Shown: positions 10,800 to 60,104, numbered from the stretch's first letter. The stretch: 64,000 nt of DNA from an uncultured Dehalococcoidaceae bacterium (GCA_964409485.1 CAYPDM010000001.1:1175-65174), one strand, 5' to 3'. Numbers and translations are program-made. The notes: generated by a model not told the origin, from the letters alone.

Positions 10800-13562
10800 A
10801 TGGATAAAATTACTCTAACCATCAACGGGCAGGAAGTCAAAGCGACCAGAGGCATGACCGTGCTCGAAGCCGCGCAGTCGGCTGATATCTATATCCCCAC
10901 CCTCTGCCACTATCCCGACCTCGACCCGTACGGGGGCTGCCGACTCTGCATCGTAGAGATTGAAAAAATGCGAGGTCTGCCCACGTCCTGCACGACCCCC
11001 GCCACCGATGGGATGGTCGTCACTACGGAATCGGAGGCCATCAACGAAGTACGCCGCGCCTCTCTGGAGCTAATACTCTCCACCCACCCCTGCGACTGCC
11101 TGGAGTGCCACCGACGGGAGCGCTGCGGCCCGTACGATATCTGCCTGCGGCATGTCGCCGTGACCGACCGCTGTGTCGTCTGTCCATCCAATAACAACTG
11201 CGAATTGCAGAATGTGGTCGACTACATCGGCGTCCACGAGCTGCGCATCCCCCGGGATACCGAACCCCGGACTATTGATACCAGCAACCCGTTCTTCGAC
11301 CTCGACCGCAACCGCTGCATTCTCTGCGCCCGCTGCGTGCGCGCCTGCCAGGAGATAACCGGCGTCGGCGCTATCGATATGGCCCATCGCGGGTACAGTA
11401 TGAAAGTAGCCACCTTCGGCGATATGCCCCTGATGGAATCGATTTGCCGTTCCTGCGGCGAGTGCATGGTACGCTGTCCGGTGGGCGCTATCACACCCAA
11501 GGAAACCGCGAGACCGGAACGCGAGGTCAAGACCGTCTGCCCTTACTGCGGCGTCGGCTGCTCGATGTACCTGGGCGTCAAAGATAACGCCATTACCGGC
11601 GTCCGCGGTGACGAATACGGCCCGGCCAATCAGGGTCGACTCTGCGTGAAGGGCCGCTTCGGCATTGCCGAGTTCGTCAATCACCGCGAACGGCTGACCG
11701 CGCCCCTTATCAGGAAGAATGGCCGGCTGGTAGAAGCTTCCTGGGACGAGGCACTCGAACTGGTCGCCGGTAAGCTGAAAAATTACCGCGGCGACGAAGT
11801 GGCGGTAATATCCTCCGCCAAGAGCACCAACGAGGACAACTATGTCATGCAGAAGTTCGCCCGGGCGGTGCTGCGCACCAACAACATAGACCACTGCGCC
11901 CGCCTCTGACATGCCCCCACCGTGGCCGGTCTGGTCACAACCTTCGGAAGCGGGGCCTCGACCAATTCCCTGAAAGACCTCAACGACGCCGGGTGCATCA
12001 TAGCCATCGGCACCAACACCACCGAAGCCCACCCGATAATCGGTATGAATATCCGCAGGGCGGTCCGCAAAGGCACCAGACTAATCGTGGCCAATCCCCT
12101 GGAAATCCCTCTGGCGCGCGACGCCGATGTCTGGCTGCAACACCGCGCCGGCACGGACGTAGTCCTGCTGATGGGCATGATGAAAGTAATCGTAGATGAA
12201 GGCCTGATGGACACCACTTTCATCGAGGAAAGGTGTGAGAACTACGATTTCTTCAAGGACTCGCTCAATAATTACCCGCTGAACCTCGTAGAGAACATCA
12301 CCGGCGTGCCCGGCGAGAAAGTAGCCGGGGCCGCCCGCCTTTACGCCGGCAACAGCCCGGCATCCATCCTTTACACGATGGGCATCACCCAGCATACTCA
12401 CGGCACGGATAATGTTATCGCCGTCGCCAACCTGGCCATGCTTACCGGCAATATCGGCAAGCCCGGCGCCGGCGTCAACCCGCTGCGGGGACAAAATAAC
12501 GTACAGGGTGCCTGCGACGTCGGAGCCCTGCCCAATGTCTTCCCCGGCTACCAGGCCGTAGGCAACGAAATCCTCAAGGAGAAATTCGAGGCGGCCTGGG
12601 GCGTCAGTCTTAACCCGACGCCCGGCAAGACTCTTACCGAGATTATGCCGCTGGCCCACGAAGGCAAGGTCAAGGCAATGTACCTCATGGGCGAGAACCC
12701 TTCTTTAAGCGACCCGGATGCCAGCCATGTCCGGGAGGCGATGCAGCGGCTGGAATTCTTCGTGGTGCAGGATATCTTCCTCAATGAGACCGCCTTGCTG
12801 GCCGATGTCGTCCTGCCGGCCTGCAGTTTTGCGGAAAAGGACGGCACCTTCACCAACACCGAGCGCCGCGTCCAGCGGGTAAGGAAAGCCATCGAACCCG
12901 TGGGTGACAGCCGTCCCGACTGGTGGATTACCTGCCGGATTGCTCAAAGCATGGGAGGCGCCGGGTTCGACTTTACACATCCGTCGCAGATTATGGAGGA
13001 GATTGCCGAAGTCACACCGAGCTACGGCGGCATCACCTACGAGCGACTTGAAAAGGAAGGCCTGCAGTGGCCCTGCCCTACCGAAGACCACCCGGGGACG
13101 GCGATACTCCACACCGAACTCTTCTCGCGCGGCAGAGGGCATTTCGTCCCGCTTGAATACCGGCCGTCCGACGAACTGCCGGACGAGGAATACCCGCTGG
13201 TGCTTACCACCAACCGCAGCCTGTTCCACTTTCATACCGGCACAATGACCCGCAAGGTCAGGGGCCTCAATACCTTCATGGGCGAGGGGCTGGTGGCGAT
13301 AAATCCTAAAGACGCCGCAGACCTGGGCATTGAAGACGGCGAAATGGTGCGGGTGAGTTCACGCCGCGGCGAAGTAACCGCCAAAGCCAGCGTGACGGAG
13401 TCCGTGCCGCCCGGAACGGTCGCCATGACCTTCCATTTTGCGGAAACCCCCACCAACGAGCTGACCAACCCCGCCCTCGACCCCATATCCAAGATACCGG
13501 AGTATAAAGTAGCCGCGATAAGAGTAAAAAAAATAGGGCGGGCGGCGGTAAAGGCGGTCTGA
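10800..13562 (+). CDS. fdhA: selenocysteine-containing molybdopterin formate dehydrogenase alpha subunit with NuoG-like N-terminal Fe-S domains
   Basis: Track ORFs 10800..11909 and 11922..13562 share a frame (11922-10800=1122). The only interruption is TGA 11907-11909, inside ...[26 protein letters not shown], the classic FDH active-site context. The N-terminus has 2Fe-2S and 4Fe-4S Cys motifs. Confidence 0.85.
11922..11938 (+). promoter_or_regulatory. putative bacterial SECIS hairpin apex downstream of the fdhA UGA
   Basis: GTGGCC(11922-27) GGTCT(11928-32) GGTCAC(11933-38) forms a 6-bp stem (one G-U pair) with a GGUCU loop. It starts 13 nt after the UGA and lies on the A-G-L codons, the place where the E. 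coli fdhF SECIS apex (GCA GGU CUG) lies. Confidence 0.55.
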
Positions 13563-15435: not shown

Positions 15436-15467
15436 GAAAATTCCCTCTTTCCGGCGGGGTGTCTTTA

Positions 15468-44804: not shown

Positions 44805-44920
44805 TTATTCAATGGAGCTTAAAGAAGATGCTCTTGATTTCACTGTTTAATTATTTTAAATTATATTAAGTCGTAAATTATGAAATAAAGAGGTAATGAA
44901 ATAAGGAAGGACTGAAAACG

Positions 44921-45427
44921 ATGAGTAAAGTCGAAGACAAAGAATATGACTTATGGATATTGTTAAGCCGGGTATATCACCTGATCGCTAAACTAAGAAA
45001 CTTAGAGCTTTTAAAATATAATATTCTACCGGTGCAATCTTATATTTTATTCATTATCAAAGCTCTCGGAAACGAAACTACCCCTACAGAAATATCCGGA
45101 TACGTGTATCAACAGAGAAGTTCAATCTCGGACATCCTCAATAGGATGGTAAAGCAAGGTCTAATAGTAAAAAGAAATCAATCGGGTGGGAATAGACGCG
45201 TAATAGTCACCTTAACTAACAATGGAGAAAGGGCTCTCGCCCTTTCCGCTGATAGAGAATATCTTCACAAAGTGATGTCCTCATTAACTGAGGGTAAAAA
45301 GCGGCAATTGGAATCATCCCTAGAAATGTTACGCGATGCCGCCATCAATGAACTTTCTGTAACCCAGAAGACAGTCATGCGGCCTTCTCTAATATCGGAG
45401 TATTATAGGAAGAAAAACCAATTGTAG
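44921..45427 (+). CDS. MarR-family winged-helix transcriptional regulator
   Basis: 168 aa. LLSRVYHLIAKLRNLELLKYNILPVQSYILFII...TPTEISGYVYQQRSSISDILNRMVKQGLIVKR shows the MarR wHTH pattern. RBS AAGGAAGG upstream. Confidence 0.8.
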   Translation: MSKVEDKEYDLWILLSRVYHLIAKLRNLELLKYNILPVQSYILFIIKALGNETTPTEISGYVYQQRSSISDILNRMVKQGLIVKRNQSGGNRRVIVTLTNNGERALALSADREYLHKVMSSLTEGKKRQLESSLEMLRDAAINELSVTQKTVMRPSLISEYYRKKNQL

Positions 45428-45664
45428 TTAGCGGCAGTTTTGATAATCAATTATTCACTATGAAACATCTGCAGTCGAAAAAAGTAAAAAACGTCGATAT
45501 ATTCTTTCCGAAAGTCGGATTAAGATTCCCGTTGTGGCAACTTTTATATACAGATAGTTGCTATAACTTTGATCTGCCCCCAGCGGTGGTAGTTTATGGT
45601 TAGGGAGAGGAGTGGTAAGTAACACGCATTCAGGGTAAGGTCGGCTCTTTAAAGGAGGCGGAAT

Positions 45665-48157
45665 ATGTCAACCGTACACAGCGATAAAAAAGTCAAAGAT
45701 GCAGGCAACTGGCAGGAGTCCTTTACTCCAACCTGTTCCGAGCGCGTTCACAGAGTGAAAAATCGTGTTCTCAGACCGATGGAGATTTGTCTGGAACGTG
45801 CTCGTGCCGAGATGAAGGCTTTAGAACAATACAAGAACGAACCCAGAGTCATTCAGCGGGCACGCATCTTTGAGACCTATCTTAAAGAGAAAACCATCTA
45901 TATTCTGGAAGATGAGCTCATCGCAGGCAATATCACCAGCAAAATACGCGGTGCTTCATTCTCCAGTGAAATGTCTCGTTTTGTAGATGAAGAGCTTGGC
46001 GACCCGGTAAAGGACTTTGAGATTCGCCCGTACGAAAAGATTATAATTACCCCCCAAGAGAGGAAAGAGATTCGGGAAGTGCTTATTCCCTACTTCAAGG
46101 GGAAGACCCTTGGCGATTATATTCTGGAAATAGCTGACGAAGAAGTTAAGGAAAAGGCTTTCTCGATAACCTCTTCCTGCTCTCACATTCCGGTCATCGC
46201 TGATCTATCATTAGACAAAGACGTTGGCCATCAGATGGCCAACTACGAAAAGGTGCTCCATAAAGGTCTCAAAGGCATCAGAGAAGAGGTCGAGTGGTAT
46301 CTGGCCCAGCTCGACCAGCCGTATCAGCACTTTGGGCTTCAGGAGAAGCGTGACTTCTACAAGGCGGTACTGATTGCACTTGATGCGGCTATGGCCTACG
46401 CCAGGAGGTATGCTGACCTGGCTCGGGAAATGGCAGCCAAAGAAGCTGACCCCAAGCTCAAGCAGGAACTTGGGCACATCGCAGAGGTTTGCCAGTGGGT
46501 GCCGGCAAACCCTGCTAGGGACTGGTGGGAAGCCTTACAGTCCGTATGGATGATACACGTCCTCATCCACTGCGATGTTTACAACCTTGCCAACTCCCTG
46601 GGCCGCTTCGACCAGTATATGTATCCCTTCTACAAGAAATCAGTAATTGACGAGAAAACGATGAGCCGTGACGAGGCTCTGGAGCTGCTGGAATGTTTCT
46701 GGATAAAGTTTAATGAGTGGGCCATACTACTTAGCTATGACGTTGCCAGTTACCAGCCAGGGCAGGGGCTAAGTCAGACGATAACTATCGGGGGCCAGAC
46801 CCACGACGGCAGAGACGCCTGCAACGAAGTTACTATGCTCTGTCTGGAAGCCGAGGAACAATTAGCCCGGCCCCAGCCAGAATTCGCCATGAGAATATGG
46901 GAAGGGACACCTGATAGTTACCTAAAGAAAGCCACCGAGCTCATCCGTCTGGGCTGGGGTAAGCCGAAATTTATTGGCGACCGGAAAGCTATTCAAATGA
47001 CGGCTAAGGCCTATCCCGATAGAACCATCGAGGACTGGCGACAGTGTGTGATGATGGGGTGCTCGGAGCTTTGTTTGCCTCACATAACCATGCAGCATAG
47101 CTGGGAAGGAGTTTGCATTCTACCCAAGATACTGGAACTGGCGCTGAACAACGGAAAGTGTGCCCTCTGCGGCCGACAGATAGGACCCCTGACCGGTGAT
47201 CCCAGGAATTTTGAGTCTATGGCAGCAGTGAGGCGGGCGCTTCAGGAGCAGGTGTTTTACTGGATGAAGCACATGGCCAGGGGCATAAAATTAGTGAAGG
47301 AGGAACAGGCTGAGAGGATGATGGCTCCGTTTTGCTCTTCCCTCTCGGAGGGCCCGTTGCAGAAGGGGCTTGACCTTGCTCGGGGTGGTGCCTGGTACAC
47401 TACCTACGGTGTATATCTCGCCGGCCTCGCCGACACCGCTGACTCTCTAGCCGTGATTGACAAGCTAATCTATAACGACAAAAAGATAACATGGGACCAA
47501 ATGCTTGAGGCTATCAAGGCCAATTGGGAGGGCCACGAAAATCTTCGCCAACTTTGCATTAACGGCGTACCTAAATATGGTAATGATAATGATTTTGCCG
47601 ATAGCTGGGCGTCCTGGGTCATGGACACCTGGTACGATAACGTGGACTGGATTAACACCCAGAAGGATCTGCTGCCGTACTACGGTGGTTTATACATTGG
47701 TGCCGGGATTATCGGTCAGAACAATGTAACCTTCGGGCCCTGGCCTGGTGCTCTACCCAATGGACGCATCTATCCAAGACCTCTGGCTGACTGTATATCT
47801 CCGTCTCCAGGCGTCGACAAGAATGGCCCCACGGCTGTAGTCAAGTCAGTTAGTAAACTGCCAACACATCGGTTTGCCATGGGTGGTCCCCTGAATCTGA
47901 GGCTGAGTCGTCAACTCCTGGCCACTGACCGCGATCTGGACAACTTCGTATCCTTCCTCAGAGCCATTGAAGAACTGGGGATATATCACACACAGTTCAA
48001 TGTGATTTCATCGGAGCTCCTGCGCAAGGCGATGAAAGAACCAGAAAATTATCGGGACCTGCTGGTCAGGGTAGCCAGCTACTGTGCCTACTTTTGCGAG
48101 CTTACCGAGGAGCAACAGCTCGATATTATTAATCGCACCGAGCAGCAAGCCTGGTAA
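45665..48157 (+). CDS. glycyl radical enzyme family protein (PFL-like fold), radical-site motif reads RVASY
   Basis: 830 aa. C-terminal fingerprint YRDLLVRVASYCAYFCELTEEQQLDIINRTEQ. Cys loop VMMGCSELC (Cys466 at 47060-62, Glu468). RBS AAAGGAGG. An activase gene follows. Confidence 0.85.
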   Translation: MSTVHSDKKVKDAGNWQESFTPTCSERVHRVKNRVLRPMEICLERARAEMKALEQYKNEPRVIQRARIFETYLKEKTIYILEDELIAGNITSKIRGASFSSEMSRFVDEELGDPVKDFEIRPYEKIIITPQERKEIREVLIPYFKGKTLGDYILEIADEEVKEKAFSITSSCSHIPVIADLSLDKDVGHQMANYEKVLHKGLKGIREEVEWYLAQLDQPYQHFGLQEKRDFYKAVLIALDAAMAYARRYADLAREMAAKEADPKLKQELGHIAEVCQWVPANPARDWWEALQSVWMIHVLIHCDVYNLANSLGRFDQYMYPFYKKSVIDEKTMSRDEALELLECFWIKFNEWAILLSYDVASYQPGQGLSQTITIGGQTHDGRDACNEVTMLCLEAEEQLARPQPEFAMRIWEGTPDSYLKKATELIRLGWGKPKFIGDRKAIQMTAKAYPDRTIEDWRQCVMMGCSELCLPHITMQHSWEGVCILPKILELALNNGKCALCGRQIGPLTGDPRNFESMAAVRRALQEQVFYWMKHMARGIKLVKEEQAERMMAPFCSSLSEGPLQKGLDLARGGAWYTTYGVYLAGLADTADSLAVIDKLIYNDKKITWDQMLEAIKANWEGHENLRQLCINGVPKYGNDNDFADSWASWVMDTWYDNVDWINTQKDLLPYYGGLYIGAGIIGQNNVTFGPWPGALPNGRIYPRPLADCISPSPGVDKNGPTAVVKSVSKLPTHRFAMGGPLNLRLSRQLLATDRDLDNFVSFLRAIEELGIYHTQFNVISSELLRKAMKEPENYRDLLVRVASYCAYFCELTEEQQLDIINRTEQQAW

Positions 48158-48257
48158 AAACCTCTGCTTCTGAGAACTGAGGGCCATCTATGTAAGCAGA
48201 CGTTATCCCAGGGATTTCAGTGTCAAGATAGATGACGCAAAGGGAGCATCAAAAGAC

Positions 48258-49187
48258 TTGGCAAAAAATTCAGAGACGACCACCGCAAAGCGACTCGTTC
48301 TAAGCATTACCAGAATGACCATTCACAATGGCCCGGGAATACGTACCTTAATTCTGTTCAAAGGGTGCCCGTTACGTTGCCTATGGTGTTCGACGCCGGA
48401 GGCTCAGAAGGACGAAGCTGAGATTGCTCTTTACCCGGATAGATGCATCCATTGTGAACAGTGTGTCCCGGTCTGCTCCACGAACGCTATAAACTTAACG
48501 GGCGAGACGGTGAGCATTAATCGTGCTATATGCAACAATTGCGGCAAATGTGCTCAGGTTTGCTACACAGAAGCCATAAAACTTCTAGGACAGGAGATGA
48601 CTATCGAAGAACTGCTTACGGAGGTGAAAAAGGACGCCATTGTCTACAAACACTCCCGTGGCGGAGTCACCATCTCAGGAGGAGAGCCCCTGTTGAATCC
48701 TGAATTCACTCAGGAATTGCTTCGGGCATTCAAAGAAGAGAACATCAGTGTTGGAGTTGATACCTGCGGTCATGTGCCCTGGAAGAACATTGAGAAAGTG
48801 TTACCCTATATTGATTTTTTTCTCTGGGATATAAAGCATATGAATGGCAAAGAACACAGGAAATTCACCGGTGTCTCTAACAAGCTTATTCTAAGTAATG
48901 CTCGTTCTGTTTCCGAGAGAAATATACCTCTTTATATCAGGGTGCCCATAATCCCGGGCTACAACGATTCAGAAGAGAATATCAGGGCTATCTGTGAGTT
49001 CGCCCGTGATTTATCTTCACTGGTAAATATAGACCTTTTACCATTACACCATCTGGGGAAGGCAAGGTACGATAGCCTGAACCTTGCCTATCAGATAGCT
49101 GATATTCCTCTTATTCCAGATAGTGTCTTGCATAACATAAAAAGGCTGGTAGAATCTTACCAGTTGAATTGCAGTATTGTCGGCTAA
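48258..49187 (+). CDS. glycyl radical enzyme activating enzyme (radical SAM, with two auxiliary ferredoxin-type clusters)
   Basis: 309 aa. HNGPGIRTLILFKGCPLRCLWCSTPE (CX3CX2C), CIHCEQCVPVC, CNNCGKCAQVC and GGVTISGGEPLL. TTG start 48258 after AGGGAG; the alternative ATG would cut into the conserved N-terminus. Confidence 0.85.
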   Translation: MAKNSETTTAKRLVLSITRMTIHNGPGIRTLILFKGCPLRCLWCSTPEAQKDEAEIALYPDRCIHCEQCVPVCSTNAINLTGETVSINRAICNNCGKCAQVCYTEAIKLLGQEMTIEELLTEVKKDAIVYKHSRGGVTISGGEPLLNPEFTQELLRAFKEENISVGVDTCGHVPWKNIEKVLPYIDFFLWDIKHMNGKEHRKFTGVSNKLILSNARSVSERNIPLYIRVPIIPGYNDSEENIRAICEFARDLSSLVNIDLLPLHHLGKARYDSLNLAYQIADIPLIPDSVLHNIKRLVESYQLNCSIVG

Positions 49188-49201
49188 AAAGGAGAAGCGA
49201 A

Positions 49202-50089
49202 ATGATAAATATTGATATTGATGAGCTACTCAGTGGCTCAATTGACATGCATATGCATCCGGGCCCTGCCGGAGGTCCTTGCCGTCTCGATGCTCTTGAA
49301 GCAGCCGAGCAGGCAAAGCAGGCCAGAATGAGGGGCATTGTCCTTAAGAGCCATAGTTATACTGCCTCTGCAGTGGCAATCATCGTGAATCAATTAGTAC
49401 CTGACATACACGTTTTCGGAAGTGTCTGCCTCGATTATGAAATCGGGGGGCTTAATTCTCACGCCGTGGAAAACGCAGCCTATCTCGGGGCTAAAGTAGT
49501 CTGGATGCCTACCTTCTCTTCCGCCAATTCAATCAATAAGATGAGGGCGTTGGGACTTCCCCTTAAAGGTGAAGGACTCTCACTAATAGATGATGCGGGC
49601 AAACTAGTACCGGAAATGGAACCCATACTCACACTTATAAAAGAACATGATATGATATTAGCTACTGGTCATATTTCTCCGCAGGAAACGTTAATTCTCC
49701 TAAATGAGGCGCAGAGAATCGGGATAAAAAAATACATCATCACCCATCCTACGGATAAAGAATTTTCAGAAAAACTTTTAAGTATTGATGAGCTGCAGCA
49801 ACTGGCCAAGATAGGGGCGTTTATTGAGTTCACTCTGGTTGGAATGTTACCAAATGAGTTTTGTCATGACCCAGCACAAATCGCGCGGACAATCAAGACT
49901 ATCGGCGCGGAACACTGTATCATCAGTACCGATCTTGGTCAACCCCAAAATCCGCTCCCGGTCGAGGGTATGAGGTTACTTATGGCCACCCTGCTTCATC
50001 ACGGAATATCACAGGAAGAAGTTGAGTTGATGGCTAAAATAAATCCGGCAACTCTTTTGGACCTAGATAAAAACTCTGAAATTCATTAA
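49202..50089 (+). CDS. amidohydrolase-superfamily (metal-dependent TIM-barrel hydrolase-like) protein
   Basis: ORF 49169..50089; start moved to ATG 49202 after AAAGGAGAAG. HxH (DMHMHPG), later ATGHIS, ITHP and ISTDLG give the His/His/Asp order of the amidohydrolase fold. Substrate unknown. Confidence 0.5.
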   Translation: MINIDIDELLSGSIDMHMHPGPAGGPCRLDALEAAEQAKQARMRGIVLKSHSYTASAVAIIVNQLVPDIHVFGSVCLDYEIGGLNSHAVENAAYLGAKVVWMPTFSSANSINKMRALGLPLKGEGLSLIDDAGKLVPEMEPILTLIKEHDMILATGHISPQETLILLNEAQRIGIKKYIITHPTDKEFSEKLLSIDELQQLAKIGAFIEFTLVGMLPNEFCHDPAQIARTIKTIGAEHCIISTDLGQPQNPLPVEGMRLLMATLLHHGISQEEVELMAKINPATLLDLDKNSEIH

Positions 50090-50165: not shown

Positions 50166-51947
50166 ATGACAAGTAAAAAAATAGCAGTTTTGAGACCGCA
50201 AGGCAAAGCCTCTCCAATACAATTGGAGCCTATGGCACCTCGGCTTGATACCCTCGAGGGCAAAACAGTATACATCGTAGACATGAATTTTCCGCGAACG
50301 CATCAATTCTGGGAAGAGATGCAAAAAATGCTCGCCAACAGATACCCCGAGACGACCTGGGTACTCAGGATTAAGGTAGGCACTTACTTTCATAATGACC
50401 CAGAGCTATGGGCTGAAATTAAGGAAAAAGGCGATGGAGTGATAATGGGTATCGGTCAGTTAGATACCTGTACGCCGTCGGTCATCATCTTTTGCTCGAT
50501 ATTAGAAAAATTAGGGCTGCCTACAGCACCCGTTGTTACTGAGGCATTTCCAAGAATCGCAAAGAGCTTTGCGTATAAGAAGGGAATGCCCGAACTACGA
50601 TTTACTTTTGTTCCCCATCCTTTCGCAAATAGACCACTCGAGGTACACCGGAAATATCTAGAGGGTAACGACCCAATAAACGGCAAGCCAGTTTTAGATG
50701 AAATTGTTGAGGCATTGACCAAACCGATAACTGATAAGGAAACGAAGACAGGGACTATAGATAGGTCAATGCCGAGGCTGTTAGAGCCTGATACCCCGGA
50801 GAATCTGGAGCGCCTCTTTATTGAAAAAGGATGGACTGATTATCTTCCGATAGTGCTTCCTACGGAAGAAAGAGTAGCCGAGATGCTCGAAGGAACGAGC
50901 CATAAACCTGATGAAGTAGTTGGCATAATGCAACCCATCCCTCCCAACGAGGTCTGGGACAACCTCACCAAGCGGCTTGGTTCCGGTGGACTGAGAAGAG
51001 GAGCTGAAAGAGAGCATTTCCCGGTAGTTATGCAACCCTCCCCTCCTCATGAGGCCTGGGAGTATACCGTAGAGCATATCGCCATTAACGCCGTGATGGC
51101 AGGAGCCAAACCAGAGCATTTCCCGGTAATATTGGCCATAGCATCGACAGGGGCAACCTCGCTGTTCAGTTCCGCGACTTCTATGACGAGGATGGTCGTC
51201 GCTAATGGGCCTATACGAAAAGAGATAAATATGAATTGTGGTCTGAGTGCACTGGGCCCGTTTAATCAGGCTAACGCTGTCATTGGAAGGGCCTGGACAC
51301 TCATATCCAAGAATCTAGGAGGATCGATACCGGGTGAAACTTATCTGGGAGATTTAGGTAATAATACCAACTACAATAATAATTGTTTCGCAGAGAACGA
51401 GGAGGTACTGCCCGAAGGATGGAGTCCTTTACATGTACAAAAGGGTTATAAGTCAGATGAAAGCGTTGTTAGTATTTTAGGTGGTTGGAGTATGCTTAAC
51501 TACGCTGCTTATAAACCACATCCACATCACGAAATAATGAAACGGCAGCTGCAAAGTTTTGAAACCAGTGGAGCCGGCACACACCACACTCCTGGAATAA
51601 ACCCCGGAACTCAAGCTACTTTTTTGTTAAGCCCGATAACGTCAAGGGATCTTAAGAATGAAGGCTTCAATAGCAAGGAGCAGTTAAGCCAATGGCTCAA
51701 GGAAAATACCTATATGACTCTTTGGAACTATTGGGCAGCTATGCCTGATGACCTTGAATCTGGCAAGGCAGGTGTCGAGCCATTTGCGTCTTTGTTGAAA
51801 CTTCCACCGGAAGCGAACTCGCCGCGACCACTTATCCTGCGCGATATACCGGTTGAGATAGTGGTAGTTGGAGGGGGAACCGATGCATTTTGGATGGCTG
51901 GTGATCTTTCTTGTATGGCGTCAGCATCAATAGATACATGGAGGTAA
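50166..51947 (+). CDS. unassigned 593-aa protein, paralogue P1 (two-domain, function unknown)
   Basis: Long ORF, last gene of the GRE transcription unit. Clearly homologous to 53700..55487 (blocks LPIVLPTEERV, IAINAVMAGAKPEHFPVILA, GPIRKEINMN). No named family recognised. Confidence 0.7.
   Translation: MTSKKIAVLRPQGKASPIQLEPMAPRLDTLEGKTVYIVDMNFPRTHQFWEEMQKMLANRYPETTWVLRIKVGTYFHNDPELWAEIKEKGDGVIMGIGQLDTCTPSVIIFCSILEKLGLPTAPVVTEAFPRIAKSFAYKKGMPELRFTFVPHPFANRPLEVHRKYLEGNDPINGKPVLDEIVEALTKPITDKETKTGTIDRSMPRLLEPDTPENLERLFIEKGWTDYLPIVLPTEERVAEMLEGTSHKPDEVVGIMQPIPPNEVWDNLTKRLGSGGLRRGAEREHFPVVMQPSPPHEAWEYTVEHIAINAVMAGAKPEHFPVILAIASTGATSLFSSATSMTRMVVANGPIRKEINMNCGLSALGPFNQANAVIGRAWTLISKNLGGSIPGETYLGDLGNNTNYNNNCFAENEEVLPEGWSPLHVQKGYKSDESVVSILGGWSMLNYAAYKPHPHHEIMKRQLQSFETSGAGTHHTPGINPGTQATFLLSPITSRDLKNEGFNSKEQLSQWLKENTYMTLWNYWAAMPDDLESGKAGVEPFASLLKLPPEANSPRPLILRDIPVEIVVVGGGTDAFWMAGDLSCMASASIDTWR
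50928..51131 (+). repeat. in-frame 2 x 102-bp tandem duplication inside P1
   Basis: Copy 1 (50928-51029) and copy 2 (51030-51131) share their ends (ATGCAACCC..CC.CC at the 5' end, GAGCATTTCCCGGTA at the 3' end) but have diverged centres. The peptides are MQPIPPNEVW...EREHFPVV and MQPSPPHEAW...KPEHFPVI. Confidence 0.75.
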
Positions 51948-52243
51948 AAACGCAACGAATTCCCTCCCTGTTTGTTACAGGTTCTGTTGCGGAATAATAT
52001 TCATACCGATATTAACATTCGGCTAACGCTGACCCTACCCCAATAGAGTGATTAGGGGCTGGAGTTTTTAAAACCTCCGGCCCTCTCGCATTGACTGAGC
52101 AAAGGAACATAAAAAAGACATGGGATCGGGTAAGATTCCTCGGACTAAACTGCGCATAGAAACTCAAGAAAAGTAGCACTAACAAATGAAGTCTCCTTTC
52201 CGGTCGGCAAATTATTTGGTACCAGTTCATGTTGTGAAGAGCA

Positions 52244-53671
52244 CTATGGTGAAGTTTGCTTCACTACTTTCGAGAAGCTGGTTCGTATTTCGCACCGGTC
52301 ACAGACATTCAGGTACTGGTCCGTGTTTACCGAATAATCGAGCCAGTCAGGAACCCCCCGTGCCCAAGGTTTACCGGTCTTTGCGAAGCTAGCCCACAAG
52401 CCCATCATGGCCTCCGAAACATTTCTGTCAATCGCACTCAGGCCGGGATTGGCCGTTTTGGCGCCGGCCTGTTGCGCTAGCATATACACGGAGGTCCACC
52501 AACCGGTGGAATTATCCCAATCGCCGAAGACGTAAGGAAGCTCCATCGAATGTACGGAGACGCAGCCTTCATTCCTCCATACTGCGGGTACCTGGTCGAA
52601 GATGCAAGCATATCCGTTACATCCCTGCTTATTCACAGATTCCAGCATCTCGATGTAGGCCGGAATAATATAAGGCATGACTAGTGGACCAGGCCCGGTC
52701 AACTCGCCTAGGTTAGCAGAAACTATGAGGGGCACAGCATTGCAGGAACCGGACTTAAACGTATTCTCGGGACTCTCCGGCAGCACCCAGCCATCCACGG
52801 CTGCATCCCAAACAAAGGCCGGGCGGTTGGTAGGAGTGCTCGGCCCTTCTATTGCCTGACTGGCTTTGATGATTTCTATAAAGGGTATCGCGCGCGCCTG
52901 CTCCAGTGGGTCAACAGCCGAGTCTATCCCCAGCTTTTCAAAAAGCGTTTTTCCACTGTTTTCGATATTCACCAGTGGTTTGCTGAGTAAGATGGCCATA
53001 GCCGTGCCGCTTTCGCAGATGGCTCGGTGGAACAGCCCCTTTGCAAGAGGTGACGACATCATAATGGACACCTTGGCTCCGCCGCCGGACTCTCCGAAGA
53101 TGGTGACATTGTCTGGGTCGCCGCCGAATGCCGCGATGTTGTCTCGCACCCACTGAAGGGAGGCGATGAGGTCAAGGAACAAGTAATTACCCGACACGCC
53201 CATCGGCGATTCTTCCGAAAGCGCGGAATGGGCTAACAGTCCAATCGGTCCAAGTCTGTGATTCAGAGTAACAACCACGACGCCATATTGAGGCAGGCGG
53301 TAGTTGTTCCATATTCTGTCATTACCACATCCCATCGAGTATCCTCCGCCATGCATCCAGACCATGACCGGTAGTTTCTCATCTGGTTCGCGTGCTGGTG
53401 TAACCACGTTCAGATAAAGGCAGTCTTCACTTTGGGGCATTTCACCTGATATACCGGGCATGAGAGGCTGGGGTGAGATATGACTGAATTGGGTACATTC
53501 GCGGATTCCTTCCCAGGGCACAACAGGCTGCGGTGGTTTCCAGCGCAAGTCTCCCACCGGAGGAGCTGCAAACGGGATTCCACGGAAGATAGATACTTCT
53601 TTCCCCGGCTCACCAATTAGAGTACCTGAAACGTAGCCCTTATCGGTTCTGACAATCTGCATATCATACAC
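52244..53671 (-). CDS. type-B carboxylesterase/lipase family serine hydrolase
   Basis: 475 aa. FRGIPFAAPPVGDLRWKPPQP, EDCLYLNV and the nucleophile elbow GESGGG. Confidence 0.85.
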   Translation of the reverse strand: MYDMQIVRTDKGYVSGTLIGEPGKEVSIFRGIPFAAPPVGDLRWKPPQPVVPWEGIRECTQFSHISPQPLMPGISGEMPQSEDCLYLNVVTPAREPDEKLPVMVWMHGGGYSMGCGNDRIWNNYRLPQYGVVVVTLNHRLGPIGLLAHSALSEESPMGVSGNYLFLDLIASLQWVRDNIAAFGGDPDNVTIFGESGGGAKVSIMMSSPLAKGLFHRAICESGTAMAILLSKPLVNIENSGKTLFEKLGIDSAVDPLEQARAIPFIEIIKASQAIEGPSTPTNRPAFVWDAAVDGWVLPESPENTFKSGSCNAVPLIVSANLGELTGPGPLVMPYIIPAYIEMLESVNKQGCNGYACIFDQVPAVWRNEGCVSVHSMELPYVFGDWDNSTGWWTSVYMLAQQAGAKTANPGLSAIDRNVSEAMMGLWASFAKTGKPWARGVPDWLDYSVNTDQYLNVCDRCEIRTSFSKVVKQTSP

Positions 53672-53699
53672 CTAATTTATAAAAATTCCGTAGCTTTTA

Positions 53700-55487
53700 T
53701 TAGCAGCCTGATTCGGTCAATGTGGCTCCTCTTATCAACTTTGTCTTGTGTGCCGTACGGAAATATGACATTCCAAAAGAATAACCCGGTATACTACCGG
53801 ACACGACGATATGAATGTCTTCCGGGTTTACGACAGGGACCTTTCCTCCTGGTTTGAGGGATTCTTTAATCACCGGTAAGCGGTCTTCAGGAATGGCATC
53901 GTGTGGATAGAATATGTCTATATCGGGGGGTTTGGTGTTAATCCTGTCATGTATACCCTGGATTTCCTGTTCACTGAGCTCTTCGTACGGTACAAGTGTA
54001 CTTTCATAGAGATAATCTCGCAGGCTTCGCTTGCTATTATAACCGATACGCTGCAGCATGATAGCCATTTCGGGATGAATGACGAGTATGTGTTTTCTGA
54101 GATGAGCCATGGGGTTAGCCACCCCAACTTTATATTGAGCAAACGTGCCGCGGTCAGCAGCTATATCTTTCACCATGCTGTCGAGGACCGGCTTTACATC
54201 CCAGGGCTCAACCACTCCTCCGCCATATATCCTCATACCTAAACCACCCATGACGGTGTCCACGGTCACGCAACTATCTTCCGGCTTGTAACCCAGGCCC
54301 TCATTAAACGTTTCCCAGGGGCTCTGCTCTATATTTTCGGCGAAAGTGTAGAAGGTATGCGGGGACGGGCGGCCGATCAGCGCCATATCGATCTCTCCCG
54401 GCCACAGGTAACCGATATTGATCAGGCTCAATCTTACGGCGCGGCCGATGGTATTGTTGGCTCGCCAGCCGTGACCTAATAAGCCTACTCCGGAATTCAT
54501 GTTAATTTCTTTGCCAAGAGGCCCGCTTACCATTATCATAAGAGTGAAGGAGCCTTCTGAACTCATCATGTGAGTGTAAGTACCCTCTTCAGTCAGGCAT
54601 TCCATGGCTGCAATTATCACCGGCAGATACTCAGGCCTTGCCCCCGCCATCACCGCGTTAATAGCTATCTTTTCAACAGTGGCGATACCGTTTCGATAAG
54701 GTACCCGGCCTATAACTTCATTGGGAGAACGCTTGGTCCCTGTTAGCATCCACTTAACGGCCTGTTCCGTGGGAGGTATCAGGGGCAACCCATCGCCCCA
54801 GTGGTTATCAAGGTACAGCCGGTTGAATGATTCAAGGGCGGACTCATAACTCTCCGCAGTAACCTCAACTGTTTCAGCAGTCTTTTTTAAGGCCTTTAGC
54901 TCCGGGTTTTTCTCCTCCGGTGCCAGGGGCCGGTTTAGGGCGTCGATAATAAGGTCAATGGACGCTTCGGCAACAGGCCTAATACTTTCCACGGTCAACC
55001 GGTTCGGGTAATAATCTATTGAAGGCAGGCTTACGATACGTAACGCGGGCATTCCCGCGTCCTCGGCTGACATCTTGGCGGTGTGAGTAGCGTTATCACC
55101 GACCACGAAAACGCCGGGTTTGCCAAGTTTTTCTAATGCGACTACCTGCAAGCACTGAATCCAGCCTCCCATGCCGTTATCGCCGACGCCGTAGATAAAA
55201 GTATCCATTTCTTTTTTTGCCTTCTCCGCCGCCTCGGCATCTCCCCAGACAAGCCGAATGGTCGTCGCTGTTGGATACCTTTCTTTCAGCAGTTCCTCGA
55301 CTGCGATACAGAAATTATCCCCACCTTTCTTACCGTCCCAGATTATTCCGATCTTCTTACCTGCCAGATCCTTTATGCGAGGGTTGATGAGCCCCGAAGG
55401 CACCGGAACTTCAAGCACACCCTGAGGATTTAAACACAACAATGAGACTTTTTCTTTCAATTTTTTCACCCCTTCTTGAAATAACAT
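53700..55487 (-). CDS. unassigned 595-aa protein, paralogue P2 (two-domain, function unknown)
   Basis: Homologous along its length to P1 (HWGDGLPLIPPTEQAV, IAINAVMAGARPEYLPVIIA, GPLGKEINMN, NNTIGRAV). Lies between the UROD-like and esterase genes. Confidence 0.7.
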   Translation of the reverse strand: MLFQEGVKKLKEKVSLLCLNPQGVLEVPVPSGLINPRIKDLAGKKIGIIWDGKKGGDNFCIAVEELLKERYPTATTIRLVWGDAEAAEKAKKEMDTFIYGVGDNGMGGWIQCLQVVALEKLGKPGVFVVGDNATHTAKMSAEDAGMPALRIVSLPSIDYYPNRLTVESIRPVAEASIDLIIDALNRPLAPEEKNPELKALKKTAETVEVTAESYESALESFNRLYLDNHWGDGLPLIPPTEQAVKWMLTGTKRSPNEVIGRVPYRNGIATVEKIAINAVMAGARPEYLPVIIAAMECLTEEGTYTHMMSSEGSFTLMIMVSGPLGKEINMNSGVGLLGHGWRANNTIGRAVRLSLINIGYLWPGEIDMALIGRPSPHTFYTFAENIEQSPWETFNEGLGYKPEDSCVTVDTVMGGLGMRIYGGGVVEPWDVKPVLDSMVKDIAADRGTFAQYKVGVANPMAHLRKHILVIHPEMAIMLQRIGYNSKRSLRDYLYESTLVPYEELSEQEIQGIHDRINTKPPDIDIFYPHDAIPEDRLPVIKESLKPGGKVPVVNPEDIHIVVSGSIPGYSFGMSYFRTAHKTKLIRGATLTESGC

Positions 55488-55543: not shown

Positions 55544-56881
55544 TTAATGATAAACACCATATTCCCTGGCCGCCTCCATAAAGGCACGAAGATTTTCAGG
55601 CTTGGCTTCTGTGACTGCGGTTCCGCCGGTTAGGACGTAGCCACCGCCGGGAGCACAAGCTTCGATAAGTTTACGGCAACATTCTTTGACATCTTTAACC
55701 TCTCCGAAAGCTAACAATGAAGCTGGCACGTTGCCAACGACACAACAAGTATCCCCGATCATTCGTTTAGCTTTAGCCATGTCAGTCTGATCAAACTGCC
55801 ATGTTACCCAGCCTTTAGGGAAATCCCCGATATACTCTAGCCTATTATTGTAGCGACCCTCACAAAATAGCGAGACCATGATACCTTCGTCGATAAGGGC
55901 AAGGATTAATTTTCTCAGACTCGGCCAGTAGAATTTTTCAAACTGTTTATTAGACATAAAGGTATCATCTCCTTTATGTAAGGGGAAATTAACGGTAAAA
56001 ACGCCCATCGCGTTAACACTGTCTATAGTACGCCGTATCATCTGTTCCAGAATCATATCGGTAGCTTCCAGGATCTTCTCCGGGTTGCGAAACATGTCTA
56101 TGGCGCTCCCCTGTGTCCCGCGTAGATGATCGGCGATCACGTCGAAGGGGGCCATGGCGAGGCCGCCCATGCTCATCGGAAAACCAGCCGCAATTGCGTC
56201 TCTATTAACAATCATAAGTTGTTTCTGGAACTTTTCTAACTCTTCACCGGCTTCCATTAGTTTTTGAAACGCTCTCCGCATTTCCGGTCTGGTAAAAGGA
56301 TAAGCAAGCACCATAGGCATGCCCGTCAAAGAGCTAAGTGGAGGGAAATTCTTCAATGCCTCCAGGGCACCCAAGACCCGCGGCGTCACGACTCTGAACC
56401 CAAAATCGGAAGGGTCTTTAAGTAAGTCATCATATTCATCTTCACTCATCAATATTGTCTCTACATATTGATGGTATCCCGCATCTTCGGGCAGCCCATG
56501 CCCCGGCCACATAAATGTTTTCATATCTAAAATATCAAGCATCTGCCCGCAAATGATACCCTCCGGTCCGAGAAAATCATCCATATCATCGTAAAAATCA
56601 TTCATAAATTTAGTCCAGGTTGGGCGGATAAGCGTGGGATCATACATTAATTGCTTTAGAATCAACCCGGAATAAAGAATGGGAAAGTTACCCGCCGGTA
56701 CCATTACCGGTACACGGTCTGGTTCCATACACAGAAACGCCTTCATGAACCGGGTGACCCTCTCCTTGTACTCTTGTTCAGCTCTGGCATCGCGAAAGGT
56801 TACCCCTGGTGGTGAAAGCCATCTTTGTAACCTCTGTTCACGTTTTTGTTCTTTGGTCATTTCAGATTGGTGTTTTTCCAT
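55544..56881 (-). CDS. uroporphyrinogen-decarboxylase-fold (UROD/MtaA-like) family protein, long form
   Basis: 445 aa. CMEPDRVPVMVPAG near the N-terminus and an overall TIM-barrel-like pattern recall UROD-family proteins. The position that is H-x-C in MT2-type methyltransferases reads LFCEG here. Assignment is tentative. Confidence 0.4.
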   Translation of the reverse strand: MEKHQSEMTKEQKREQRLQRWLSPPGVTFRDARAEQEYKERVTRFMKAFLCMEPDRVPVMVPAGNFPILYSGLILKQLMYDPTLIRPTWTKFMNDFYDDMDDFLGPEGIICGQMLDILDMKTFMWPGHGLPEDAGYHQYVETILMSEDEYDDLLKDPSDFGFRVVTPRVLGALEALKNFPPLSSLTGMPMVLAYPFTRPEMRRAFQKLMEAGEELEKFQKQLMIVNRDAIAAGFPMSMGGLAMAPFDVIADHLRGTQGSAIDMFRNPEKILEATDMILEQMIRRTIDSVNAMGVFTVNFPLHKGDDTFMSNKQFEKFYWPSLRKLILALIDEGIMVSLFCEGRYNNRLEYIGDFPKGWVTWQFDQTDMAKAKRMIGDTCCVVGNVPASLLAFGEVKDVKECCRKLIEACAPGGGYVLTGGTAVTEAKPENLRAFMEAAREYGVYH

Positions 56882-57005
56882 AAATAATTACTCCTAATTG
56901 TTTCAAAGTACTGTAAACTCTCGAAATAATTTACCTATATTTACTAATTTACAGATATATTTTGTTAGATAATGGGCGTAAAGAGTTTGACAACGGACGG
57001 GGGGC

Positions 57006-57066
57006 TTGACATTCATGAAAGCATATTATATCATTGGGTAACAAAAAATCAAGTACGTATACGTAT
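57006..57066 (+). promoter_or_regulatory. promoter-operator cassette C (upstream of the aldolase/SBP array)
   Basis: TTGACA 57006-57011, 17 nt, TATCAT 57029-57034, 18 nt, GTACGTATACGTAT 57053-57066. The hexamers, spacings and 14-mer are identical to cassette A. Confidence 0.6.
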
Positions 57067-57276
57067 ATGTATCCAAATAATTATCATAAACTACTCAATT
57101 TGAACTACTTTTATAACGTTGACCAACGATAAAAACATGTTAACGTATACCTTTGAATAAATTTTTAAGATAAAAGATAAAGGCCCTATTACTTTCGAAC
57201 CGGATATAGTGAACTGCTAAGGAGTTATTAGTTTACCCGCGAAGATACACGATAAGTTATCAAAGGGGAGGCCGAA

Positions 57277-58332: not shown

Positions 58333-58398
58333 AAAGCCTCTGAAACCTATTTATATCCGCGTAAGGTGAAAGCGAAATAAAAAATAAGGAGTGAAAAA

Positions 58399-60039: not shown

Positions 60040-60104
60040 CATAACAACCATCACGATAAAAGTTGAATTAACAAGGAAAAACTACATTGTAGTAATAAAG
60101 GAGT

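What the first reader, a model, noticed from the sequence alone, without database searches (positions are those of the whole stretch)
50166..55487. Two divergent ~595-aa paralogues of a two-domain protein I cannot assign, each embedded in a different operon of the regulon
P1 (50166-51947, plus strand, last gene of the GRE operon) and P2 (53700-55487, minus strand, between the UROD-like and esterase genes) are colinear homologues. One hand-aligned block is LERLFIEKGWTDYLPIVLPTEERVAEMLEGTSHKPDEVVG against FNRLYLDNHWGDGLPLIPPTEQAVKWMLTGTKRSPNEVIG, with 19 of 40 positions identical. Further blocks are IAINAVMAGAKPEHFPVILA / IAINAVMAGARPEYLPVIIA, GPIRKEINMN / GPLGKEINMN and NAVIGRAW / NNTIGRAV. Both also share an N-terminal region of about 190 aa with a conserved Cys after a G-x-G turn (GIGQLDTCTPS / GVGDNGMGGWIQC) and a later MPELRF / MPALRI block. 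I recognise no cofactor motif and no TM segment. Two copies retained in one regulon next to a radical enzyme, a UROD-fold protein and an esterase make them the best candidates here for an undescribed enzymatic function.
Basis: seen in the sequence. Interest (0 to 1): 0.6.

Follow-up and report, generated by a model that had tools for sequence, protein, structure and literature searches.

The report
Selenium-free pair of UGSC-family proteins
The two ~595-residue proteins are real paralogues from a very large but functionally unknown family that in most bacteria is a selenocysteine enzyme; this pair has lost the selenocysteine yet kept the rest of the protein, so it is a good handle on an abundant family whose function nobody knows.

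Summary
P1 (50166-51947, +) and P2 (53700-55487, -) are true colinear paralogues (29% identity, E 3e-44). The N-terminal ~160 aa can be assigned: it is the Pfam UGSC domain (PF24696), known only as an uncharacterised selenoprotein family. The C-terminal ~390 aa has no Pfam or NCBIfam model and no PDB match by sequence or Foldseek, although the AlphaFold model is confident. About 5,600 50%-identity clusters across many phyla carry it. In most homologues the codon aligned to P1 Leu99 is an in-frame TGA followed by xxC and a covarying SECIS-like hairpin, and a thioredoxin-reductase-like gene is often adjacent. Contig L015 carries P2-type(Sec), TrxR and P1-type(Sec) in a row. The window pair has lost this chemistry: in P1, TGA became TTA and half the hairpin remains; P2 has Asn/Gly. 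The same organism still decodes Sec in FdhA. P1 and P2 orthologues stay together in about 17 of 21 informative contigs, alongside esterases, DHDPS-like, DUF6282, URO-D-like and glycyl-radical genes. My best reading is a Sec-independent heteromeric enzyme that evolved from a TrxR-coupled selenoenzyme. Its substrate is unknown.

The parts
50166..51947 (+). P1, 593 aa, two-domain protein (UGSC domain plus unannotated C-domain); last gene after GRE, activase and DUF6282
   Evidence: ORF list and translation. 3414+ homologues, all 'hypothetical'.
50187..50651 (+). P1 UGSC domain (aa 8-162)
   Evidence: PF24696 E 9e-24, 85 bits. NF041046 scores 60 bits, below its 125-bit cutoff. The AF2 N-domain matches flavodoxin-like alpha/beta folds only.
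50460..50462 (+). P1 Leu99 codon TTA, at the position of the Sec (TGA) codon of homologues
   Evidence: Aligned to in-frame TGA in GHUSTC-type relatives, and one nucleotide away from TGA. U->L is one of only two class-defining substitutions between Sec-type relatives and the P1 clade.
50469..50471 (+). P1 Cys102 codon, at the position of the resolving Cys of UxxC
   Evidence: Aligned to the C of UxxC. Only 76% conserved in the P1 clade.
50472..50489 (+). Relic of the SECIS-like hairpin: the 5' arm ACGCCGTCGGTC is kept and the 3' arm is replaced by ATCATC
   Evidence: Compared with L007a TGA AGT ACC TGT ACG CCG TCG GTC GTC GGC. The hairpin is supported by covariation in Sec-type genes.
50778..51944 (+). 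P1 C-terminal domain (aa 205-593), with no family model
   Evidence: No Pfam or NCBIfam hit. The profile finds 5614 cluster representatives. AF2 pLDDT 88.4, pTM 0.88. No PDB match by Foldseek or by profile.
50925..51053 (+). P1-subclade insertion (aa 254-296) with the internal repeat MQPIPPNEVW / MQPSPPHEAW
   Evidence: Absent from P2 and from many P1-clade members. pLDDT below 50.
51630..51632 (+). P1 Ser489 codon, replacing an Asp that is invariant in 64 Sec-type relatives
   Evidence: Second of the two class-defining substitutions.
53700..55487 (-). P2, 595 aa, paralogue of P1, between the URO-D-like and carboxylesterase genes; the true start is possibly GTG at 55469
   Evidence: 4868+ homologues, most of them 586-589 aa.
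54933..55388 (-). P2 UGSC domain (aa 34-185)
   Evidence: PF24696 E 3e-14, 54 bits.
55176..55178 (-). P2 Asn104 codon at the Sec position; Gly107 sits at the resolving-Cys position
   Evidence: Alignments. The nearest Sec-type relative (L015, 51% identity) has GVGDUGTFTC.
53703..54875 (-). P2 C-terminal domain (aa 205-595)
   Evidence: Same family as the P1 C-domain. Family-invariant residues are retained.
44921..50089 (+). Context upstream of P1: MarR regulator (44921-45427), glycyl radical enzyme (45665-48157), its activase (48258-49187) and DUF6282 (49169-50089)
   Evidence: Pfam and NCBIfam. The GRE is below every equivalog cutoff, and its closest solved relatives are CutC, HypD and glycerol dehydratase types.
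52244..53671 (-). Carboxylesterase downstream of P2
   Evidence: PF00135 E 3e-96.
55544..56881 (-). URO-D-like protein upstream of P2
   Evidence: PF01208 E 6e-22. The closest solved relative is CdmB, a substrate:corrinoid methyltransferase, E 2e-29.
11907..11909 (+). In-frame TGA in the FdhA-like gene (10800-13562), showing that the organism decodes Sec
   Evidence: HCARL-TGA-HAPTV, with both halves in the same frame and molybdopterin domains split across the stop.

Best explanation
P1 and P2 are the two subunit-type paralogues of a selenium-free branch of a very large two-domain protein family. The N-terminal UGSC domain is a flavodoxin-like alpha/beta domain. In most family members it carries Sec-x-x-Cys at the start of a helix. 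The ~390-aa C-terminal domain is not in Pfam or NCBIfam and has no PDB fold match. In the ancestral form, electrons probably flow from NAD(P)H through a dedicated thioredoxin-reductase-like flavoprotein to the Sec/Cys pair, which then acts on a substrate held by the C-domain. This electron path is inferred, not shown. In the window pair the Sec/Cys chemistry has been removed. P1 changed TGA to TTA (Leu99), lost the 3' arm of the SECIS hairpin and changed Asp489 to Ser. P2 has Asn104 and Gly107. Meanwhile 84 positions, including every family-invariant residue of the C-domain, stayed conserved. Most likely P1 and P2 form a heteromer that still binds the family's class of small-molecule substrate but converts it without selenol/thiol redox chemistry. 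It would act within an anaerobic catabolic island of esterases, DHDPS-like lyases, DUF6282, a URO-D-like protein and sometimes a glycyl radical enzyme. Shown: homology, domain identity, Sec loss, the conserved pairing and the gene context. Inferred: the heteromer, the catalytic role and the non-redox chemistry. The substrate is unknown.
For: - Paralogy: E 3e-44.
- UGSC domain.
- In-frame TGA at the site aligned to Leu99 in about 85 of 110 homologous copies from about 80 species genomes, with Cys forms (GHCSTC) in Alphaproteobacteria.
- SECIS-like hairpin 11-12 nt after the TGA: covariation 0.316 against 0.155 in shuffles (0 of 500 reached it), and at most 0.133 in slid controls.
- P1 keeps the 5' arm of that hairpin and has TTA where relatives have TGA.
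- A TrxR-like CxxC flavoprotein is adjacent and co-oriented in about 16 of 80 loci, all with Sec or Cys forms.
- L015 carries P2-type(U), TrxR and P1-type(U) in a row, at 51% and 46% identity to P2 and P1.
- The C-domain is also fused to a C-terminal UGSC domain (P0339) or to an Nfu-like CxxC domain (P0325, P0361), and occurs as tandem C-domain pairs of about 710 aa.
- Only U99L and D489S separate 64 Sec-type relatives from 106 P1-clade proteins, and 84 positions are conserved in both.
- Invariant C-domain residues are at least 97% conserved within both clades.
- A P2 orthologue is present in 23 of 42 P1-orthologue contigs, and in about 17 of 21 with enough flank. The two genes are adjacent in tandem, convergent and divergent orientations.
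- The host decodes Sec in FdhA, so the loss was not forced on it.
- No TrxR-like gene lies within 10 kb in any of the 42 loci.
Against: No experiment or structural neighbour indicates what the C-domain does. Physical interaction between P1 and P2 is inferred only from gene proximity and from tandem-fused relatives. P2-clade proteins have two clade-specific invariant cysteines in the UGSC domain (Cys60, Cys112) that are absent from the nearest Sec-type relative. These could form a substitute thiol pair. The P1 clade has an invariant Cys407 next to the invariant Glu410, although that Cys is also present in Sec-type relatives. A TrxR-like gene 74% identical to the one in L015 exists 36 kb away in the window. 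About 4 of 21 informative contigs have P1 without P2.
Confidence: 0.5

Rival explanations
1. P1/P2 are still thiol-based reductases. The lost Sec/Cys pair has been replaced by other cysteines (P2 Cys60/Cys112; P1 Cys102/Cys110/Cys407), which are reduced by the housekeeping thioredoxin system.
For: The P2 clade gained two cysteines in the UGSC domain that are 97-99% conserved and absent from its Sec-type relative. The window encodes a TrxR-like protein 74% identical to the one embedded in the L015 module.
Against: P1 Cys102 and Cys110 are dispensable in the clade (N/S variants). Cys407 predates the Sec loss. The Asp that co-varies with Sec is also lost. Where the family kept redox chemistry without Sec, it used a direct U->C replacement (GHCSTC), not Leu or Asn. 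The TrxR-like homologues sit in housekeeping contexts.
Confidence: 0.15
2. P1/P2 are catalytically dead pseudoenzymes. They would be substrate-binding, scaffolding or regulatory partners of neighbouring enzymes such as the glycyl radical enzyme, esterases or the URO-D-like protein.
For: The family's signature catalytic residue has been lost in both copies. P1 is co-transcribed with a GRE and its activase here and in 11 of 42 loci. GREs are known to recruit accessory subunits; this last point is established knowledge of benzylsuccinate synthase and 4-hydroxyphenylacetate decarboxylase, not a test made here.
Against: All family-invariant polar residues of the C-domain (D225, T233, N370, R375, E410, W419 in P1 numbering) remain at least 97% conserved in both clades. 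P1/P2 pairs also occur without any GRE (L001, L085). No single neighbour is universal.
Confidence: 0.2
3. P1 and P2 do not work together. They are independent homo-oligomeric enzymes acting on different substrates in two parallel pathways, which is the reader's 'different operon' picture.
For: They lie in different transcription units in this window. Most Sec-type relatives in Proteobacteria are single-copy. Some contigs have P1 without P2.
Against: They co-localise in about 80% of informative contigs despite extensive rearrangement, including directly tandem P1->P2 and P2->P1 arrangements. Matching Sec-type pairs exist (L015, L007, L010, L016, L035). Single-chain tandem C-domain proteins also exist.
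Confidence: 0.2
4. The similarity between P1 and P2 is compositional or due to chance, or the ORFs are not genes.
For: None found.
Against: E 3e-44 with composition-adjusted statistics. Thousands of homologues exist with conserved motifs. The AF2 models are confident.
Confidence: 0.01

Closest known systems
UGSC-containing selenoprotein family (Pfam PF24696, NCBIfam NF041046; Zhang & Gladyshev 2007/2008, PMC1976440 and PMC2398784)
   Same: The N-terminal domains of P1 and P2 match PF24696 above threshold. Homologues carry the U-x-x-C motif at the aligned site. The 2008 paper already noted a fusion of UGSC to an 'Unknown_1' domain, which may be the C-domain seen here; its figure is an image, so I could not verify this.
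   Different: P1 and P2 lack both the Sec and (P2, and part of the P1 clade) the Cys. They score below the NF041046 equivalog cutoff and are about 595-aa two-domain proteins, not about 150-aa proteins. The family is still listed as functionally uncharacterised in a 2026 review (PMC13188914). The predicted fold is flavodoxin-like, not the thioredoxin-like fold suggested in 2008.
Selenoprotein B of glycine / D-proline reductase (GrdB, PrdB) with operon-encoded thioredoxin reductase
   Same: A Sec-containing catalytic subunit works with a second substrate-binding component and an operon-encoded TrxR. This resemblance to the family at large rests on established knowledge of grd/prd operons. There is also a faint sequence hit of P1 aa 78-144 to the PrdB model around its Sec region (E 0.017).
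   Different: The hit is far below the cutoff (14.6 against 300 bits). There is no Pfam GRDB match, even for Sec-type N-domains. No pyruvoyl proprotein partner is present. P1 and P2 have no Sec. This is an analogy only.
Sec-to-Cys homologue replacement in selenoprotein families
   Same: The family shows the usual Sec/Cys interchange, with GHCSTC in Alphaproteobacteria.
   Different: P1 and P2 instead replaced Sec with Leu and Asn in an organism that still makes selenoproteins. This indicates a change of chemistry rather than a change of element.
Accessory subunits of glycyl radical enzymes (e.g. BSS beta/gamma, HPAD gamma)
   Same: P1 is encoded at the end of a GRE-activase operon here and in several other contigs.
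   Different: There is no sequence or size resemblance and no Fe-S cysteine motif. P1/P2 pairs also occur without a GRE.

Membership tests
UGSC family (Pfam PF24696) | Match to the Pfam model above the gathering threshold (25 bits) | tested here: met
   P1 85 bits (aa 8-162) and P2 53.8 bits (aa 34-185). All close homologues carry a precomputed PF24696 annotation.
UGSC family (seleno)protein, NCBIfam NF041046 equivalog | Score at or above the curated cutoff of 125 bits | tested here: not met
   60.2 and 45.5 bits.
UGSC family | Redox motif U/C-x-x-C | tested here: not met
   P1 has L99-D-T-C102, with C102 not conserved in the clade. P2 has N104-G-M-G107.
UGSC family (selenoprotein form) | In-frame UGA followed by a SECIS hairpin | tested here: not met
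   The window has TTA with only the 5' arm of the hairpin. Homologues have TGA plus a covarying hairpin.
GrdB/PrdB selenoprotein B | Match to TIGR04483 or Pfam GRDB at the family threshold | tested here: not met
   TIGR04483 E 0.017, 14.6 bits against a 300-bit cutoff. No GRDB hit for window or Sec-type N-domains at E <= 10.
Thioredoxin-fold oxidoreductases (fold proposed for UGSC in 2008) | Thioredoxin-like fold of the Sec-bearing domain | tested here: not met
   The AF2 N-domain has a repeating strand-helix topology. The best Foldseek matches are flavodoxin-like domains (GH3 C-domain, PurE, RpiB, PTS IIB, type II dehydroquinase), and none of the top 50 has a thioredoxin fold. All matches are weak (E >= 1e-3).
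Any solved fold, for the C-terminal domain | Significant structural or profile match to a PDB chain | tested here: not met
TrxR-coupled two-component module (the family's common context) | Adjacent, co-oriented TrxR-like gene | tested here: not met
   None within 10 kb in the window cluster or in 42 orthologous contigs. The only TrxR-like gene in the window is 36 kb away, and its homologues sit in housekeeping contexts.
Heteromeric P1/P2-type pair | Physical association of the two paralogues | not testable with these tools
   Only genomic co-localisation and tandem-fused relatives are available. No multimer prediction tool was available.

The most novel reading that the evidence does not exclude
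The 'UGSC' selenoprotein is one of the most abundant selenoprotein families in aquatic metagenomes, and its function is unknown. It may in fact be the redox module of a ~570-aa two-domain reductase with a previously undescribed catalytic fold. That reductase would be TrxR-coupled and often alpha/beta-heteromeric, making it a further class of Sec-dependent substrate reductase besides glycine and proline reductase. P1/P2 would then be a naturally 'de-selenised' branch (U->L plus D->S in P1) repurposed for non-redox or radical-enzyme-linked catabolism in anaerobes.
Probability: 0.3. Interest if true: 0.8.

Novelty: new variant of a known kind. Interest (0 to 1): 0.6.

Why it matters
UGSC-containing proteins have appeared in selenoproteome surveys since 2007 with no function assigned. 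Because gene callers stop at the UGA, most family members sit in databases as truncated ~430-450-aa 'hypothetical proteins'.

This window connects several facts about the family:
- The Sec module is normally fused to a large, conserved, unannotated domain.
- The family comes with its own TrxR-like reductase, often as paralogue pairs.
- A Sec-free pair exists in a Sec-competent anaerobe, differing from Sec forms at essentially two positions.

Together these give a defined, testable system. The Sec-free forms are easy to express. The two-residue difference points to the catalytic centre. The gene neighbours (esterases, DHDPS-like, DUF6282, GRE) narrow the search for substrates. It also corrects systematic mis-annotation of a family with thousands of clusters.

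Tried and rejected
1. Compositional artefact. Rejected.
2. Membership in GrdB/PrdB. The only evidence is an E 0.017 hit, and there is no Pfam GRDB hit even for Sec-type domains. I keep it as an analogy only.
3. Thioredoxin fold for the UGSC domain. Not supported by the model.
4. A fold assignment for the C-domain.
   - Foldseek against PDB with the full-length and the C-domain-only models gave nothing significant.
   - A profile search against PDB sequences gave nothing.
5. The idea that a Cys after the NAVMAG motif ('MAGC') substitutes for Sec in proteins lacking UGSC. There is no clean correlation: C and A are about equal in every architecture class.
6. The window's TrxR-like gene (13569-14489) as a dedicated partner. 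It is 74% identical to the L015 module's TrxR, but its homologues sit in housekeeping contexts.
7. Names from source databases. These are only 'hypothetical protein' or 'UGSC family (seleno)protein'.
8. Literature on DUF6282, on GRE plus Dehalococcoidia plus esterase, and on UGSC. There is no functional study.
9. Figure S1A of the 2008 paper ('Unknown_1'). It is held only as an image, so identity with the C-domain could not be checked.
10. Deriving the pathway from neighbours. The GRE is of no assigned subtype. The URO-D-like protein is distantly related to CdmB, with no corrinoid protein nearby. DUF6282 has no solved relative. No substrate could be deduced.


Full report
**Observation.** Both ORFs exist exactly as described: P1 at 50166-51947 (+, 593 aa) and P2 at 53700-55487 (-, 595 aa). 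BLASTP of one against the other gives 29% identity over 536 aligned residues, E = 3e-44. The match is colinear from residue ~6 to ~517, with a ~38-residue insertion in P1. The 40-residue block has 18 identities, not 19. Neither protein has a TM-like segment. The paralogy is therefore real.

One detail fails. The 'conserved Cys after a G-x-G turn' is not conserved. P1 Cys102 aligns with P2 Gly107, and P2 Cys112 aligns with P1 Ile107. Within 106 P1-clade proteins Cys102 is only 76% conserved.

**What the N-terminal domain is.** Residues 8-162 of P1 and 34-185 of P2 match Pfam PF24696 'UGSC family', at 85 and 54 bits against a gathering score of 25. They score below the NCBIfam NF041046 equivalog cutoff. 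UGSC-containing proteins are known only from selenoproteome surveys. They are described there as a selenoprotein of unknown function with a UxxC motif, among the most abundant families in the GOS data, and once noted as fused to an 'Unknown_1' domain (PMC1976440, PMC2398784). A 2026 review still lists them as uncharacterised (PMC13188914). The AlphaFold model of full-length P1 has pLDDT 80.9 and pTM 0.83. It gives the N-domain an alternating strand-helix topology. Its only Foldseek neighbours are flavodoxin-like domains, all weak (E >= 1e-3, TM ~0.17), and none has a thioredoxin fold.

**What the C-terminal domain is.**
- Residues ~205-593 have no Pfam or NCBIfam match and no relative among PDB sequences, by single sequence or by a 62-sequence profile.
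- A C-domain-only model is confident: pLDDT 88.4, pTM 0.88.
- Foldseek finds nothing significant in the PDB. The best match has E 0.012 and TM ~0.2. The scattered weak hits are to class I fumarase, Toblerone-fold cyclic amide hydrolases and DUF1185.
- A profile of the domain finds 5,614 cluster representatives at 50% identity (1,377 at E <= 1e-30) among 1.84 billion proteins.
- A scan of one genome per species found at least 592 loci. They come from Chloroflexota, Acidobacteriota, Desulfobacterota, Actinomycetota, Alpha-, Beta- and Gammaproteobacteria, Latescibacterota and others.
- Invariant or nearly invariant residues across this diversity, in P1 numbering, include D225, P228, P232, T233, M240, A306, G313, G348, N370, R375, E410 and W419.

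**The family is mostly a selenoprotein, and gene callers truncate it.** Many representatives are ~420-460 aa and begin just after the UGSC motif, with sequences like M..E[KR].G[IV]P. On the contig of one of them, the upstream frame stays open and homologous to the P1 N-domain through a TGA codon: VLVGH-TGA-STCAPAC.

I read upstream of every C-domain copy in 80 species loci with TGA translated as U. About 85 of ~110 copies have in-frame TGA at the residue aligned to P1 Leu99, followed by xxC aligned to P1 Cys102. The motifs are GHUSTC, GLUSTC, GGUDGC, AGUPGC and GDUGSC. About ten alphaproteobacterial copies have Cys instead (GHCSTC).

In 51 GH/GL-U-S-T-C genes a hairpin with a 6-bp core stem and a GGUC loop starts 11-12 nt after the TGA. 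On 31 distinct sequences its covariation score is 0.316, against 0.155 +/- 0.024 in shuffles (0 of 500 reached it) and at most 0.133 when the pairing is slid. This is what a bacterial SECIS looks like.

**A dithiol or selenothiol partner is a recurrent theme.**
- A thioredoxin-reductase-like flavoprotein (TIGR01292, E 3e-88, CxxC) is directly adjacent and co-oriented in about 16 of 80 loci. All of these have Sec or Cys forms.
- The C-domain also occurs with the UGSC domain at its C-terminus instead (P0339).
- It occurs with an Nfu-like CxxC domain (P0325, P0361).
- It occurs as single-chain tandem C-domain pairs of ~710 aa.

From this I infer that the ancestral activity is a reductase. Electrons would pass from the TrxR-like protein to the Sec/Cys pair, and from there to a substrate on the C-domain. 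The closest analogy is the selenoprotein B / TrxR arrangement of glycine and proline reductases. Sequence evidence for true homology is negligible (E 0.017; nothing in Pfam).

**The window pair has lost that chemistry.** The P1 clade has GQLDT[C/N] or GHMDT[L/M] at the site, and the P2 clade has GDNGMGG.

At the DNA level P1 reads GGT CAG TTA GAT ACC TGT ACG CCG TCG GTC ATC ATC. The 49%-identical Sec-type gene of L007 reads GGG CAT TGA AGT ACC TGT ACG CCG TCG GTC GTC GGC. The Leu99 codon is one substitution away from TGA. The 5' arm of the hairpin is intact and the 3' arm is gone.

I compared 64 Sec-type relatives with 106 P1-clade proteins. Only two substitutions are class-defining: U99->L, and an Asp that is invariant in Sec forms ->Ser489. 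The other differences are indels. Eighty-four positions, including all the C-domain motifs, are conserved in both groups. The polar invariants are at least 97% conserved inside both the P1 and P2 clades.

The loss was not forced on the organism. The same window encodes an FdhA-type protein split by an in-frame TGA in the canonical HCARL-U-HAPTV context.

**P1 and P2 belong together.** The nearest Sec-containing relative of P1 is the GHUSTC type, up to 56% identity over the full length. The nearest Sec relative of P2 is a GVGDUGTFTC protein on contig L015, at 51% identity over 592 aa. L015 carries, in a row, P2-type(Sec), a TrxR-like gene and P1-type(Sec). This looks like the redox-active counterpart of the window pair.

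Among 42 metagenomic contigs with a P1 orthologue (>= 60% identity), 23 also hold a P2 orthologue. That is about 17 of the 21 contigs with at least 4 kb on both sides. The two genes are adjacent in tandem (both orders), convergent or divergent arrangements. Pairs also appear in a 6.9-Mb genome, in Acidobacteriota and in 'Deltaproteobacteria' MAGs.

Recurrent neighbours in the 42 contigs are DUF6282 (20), DHDPS-like (20), carboxylesterase (16), URO-D-like (15) and GRE (11). Peptidase_S15, tannase-type esterases, SGL lactonase, amidohydrolase, family-III CoA-transferases and MaoC also recur. No TrxR-like gene lies within 10 kb in any of them.

The window's single TrxR-like gene (13569-14489) is 74% identical to the one in L015. 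However, its 77-92% homologues in Dehalococcoidales sit next to recA or Wood-Ljungdahl genes, not UGSC genes. I treat it as housekeeping.

**Mechanism, and how sure.** Shown: homology, domain identity, Sec loss with a molecular fossil, retention of the C-domain's conserved residues, conserved pairing, and the catabolic context.

Inferred at about 0.5 confidence: P1 and P2 form a heteromer that binds the family's kind of substrate and converts it without selenol/thiol chemistry, inside an anaerobic pathway that begins with ester hydrolysis and sometimes includes a glycyl radical enzyme.

Three rivals remain open:
- Residual thiol redox activity through P2-specific Cys60/Cys112.
- A pseudoenzyme or scaffold role.
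- Two independent enzymes that do not interact.

The substrate could not be deduced. The GRE belongs to no assigned subtype; the nearest are CutC, HypD and glycerol-dehydratase types. The URO-D-like protein is only distantly related to the corrinoid methyltransferase CdmB. DUF6282 has no characterised relative.

**Novelty and score.** By Pfam the proteins are members of a known but uncharacterised family. They are an unusual variant, Sec- and Cys-free and paired. They also expose features of the whole family that I did not find in the searchable literature: the dominant two-domain architecture, the TrxR linkage, the alpha/beta pairs and the systematic truncation at UGA. I rate this as a new variant of a known kind, with interest 0.6.

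Noticed in passing
window 10800-13562 (TGA at 11907-11909): A formate-dehydrogenase-alpha-like gene is split by an in-frame TGA in the motif HCARL-U-HAPTV, so the organism makes selenoproteins. ORF callers list it as two ORFs (369 and 546 aa).
   Followed up: partly
window 44608-44920 and 56882-57276: Both divergent promoter regions (MaoC|MarR and URO-D|DHDPS) contain a TACGTA-type palindrome (GTGTACGTACATCA and AGTACGTATACGTATATGTA) 10-25 nt from a GATATAATAT -10-like box.
   Followed up: partly
window 50925-51053 (P1 aa 254-296): A subclade-specific, low-confidence insertion containing an internal repeat (MQPIPPNEVW ... MQPSPPHEAW). It looks like a partial duplication of the segment that follows it.
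   Followed up: no
window 55469-55487: Most P2 orthologues are 586-589 aa and start at the residue equivalent to Val7 (GTG), so the true P2 start may be 55469 rather than 55487.
   Followed up: no
window 57277-64000: A DHDPS-like plus SBP_bac_5 module is repeated (57277-60039 and 60105-62876). A third DHDPS-like copy (77% identical to the first) starts near 63139 and runs off the window.
   Followed up: no
window 13569-15522: A TrxR-like gene (CAFC motif, below the TIGR01292 cutoff) lies next to an SGL lactonase. It is 74% identical to the TrxR-like gene that sits between the two Sec-type UGSC genes on L015, but its close homologues are in housekeeping contexts.
   Followed up: yes
L007 (both copies), L006, P0103, P0062: Some family members, including Sec forms, carry signal-peptide, lipoprotein-like or TAT-like N-termini. 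Part of the family may therefore be extracytoplasmic, which is hard to reconcile with a cytoplasmic TrxR partner.
   Followed up: no
P0241-P0389 and L003: Public gene calls systematically truncate this family at the Sec codon. This yields ~430-450-aa 'hypothetical proteins' plus ~110-150-aa N-terminal fragments.
   Followed up: yes
P0325, P0361, P0339, P0258, P0280: There are alternative architectures of the C-domain: with a C-terminal Nfu-like CxxC domain, with the UGSC domain at the C-terminus, and as tandem C-domain duplications (~710 aa) without UGSC.
   Followed up: partly
window 45665-48157: The glycyl radical enzyme matches no NCBIfam equivalog (about 500 bits against cutoffs above 1000 for CutC, HypD and sulfopropanediol dehydratase). 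It is therefore a GRE of unassigned substrate, conserved next to P1 in 11 of 42 contigs.
   Followed up: partly
window 30303-31988: A large serine recombinase (Resolvase/Recombinase/Zn-ribbon) lies upstream of the catabolic island. Together with the scattered phylogenetic distribution of near-identical P1/P2 clusters (a 'Deltaproteobacteria' MAG at 89-91% identity), it hints at horizontal transfer of the island.
   Followed up: no
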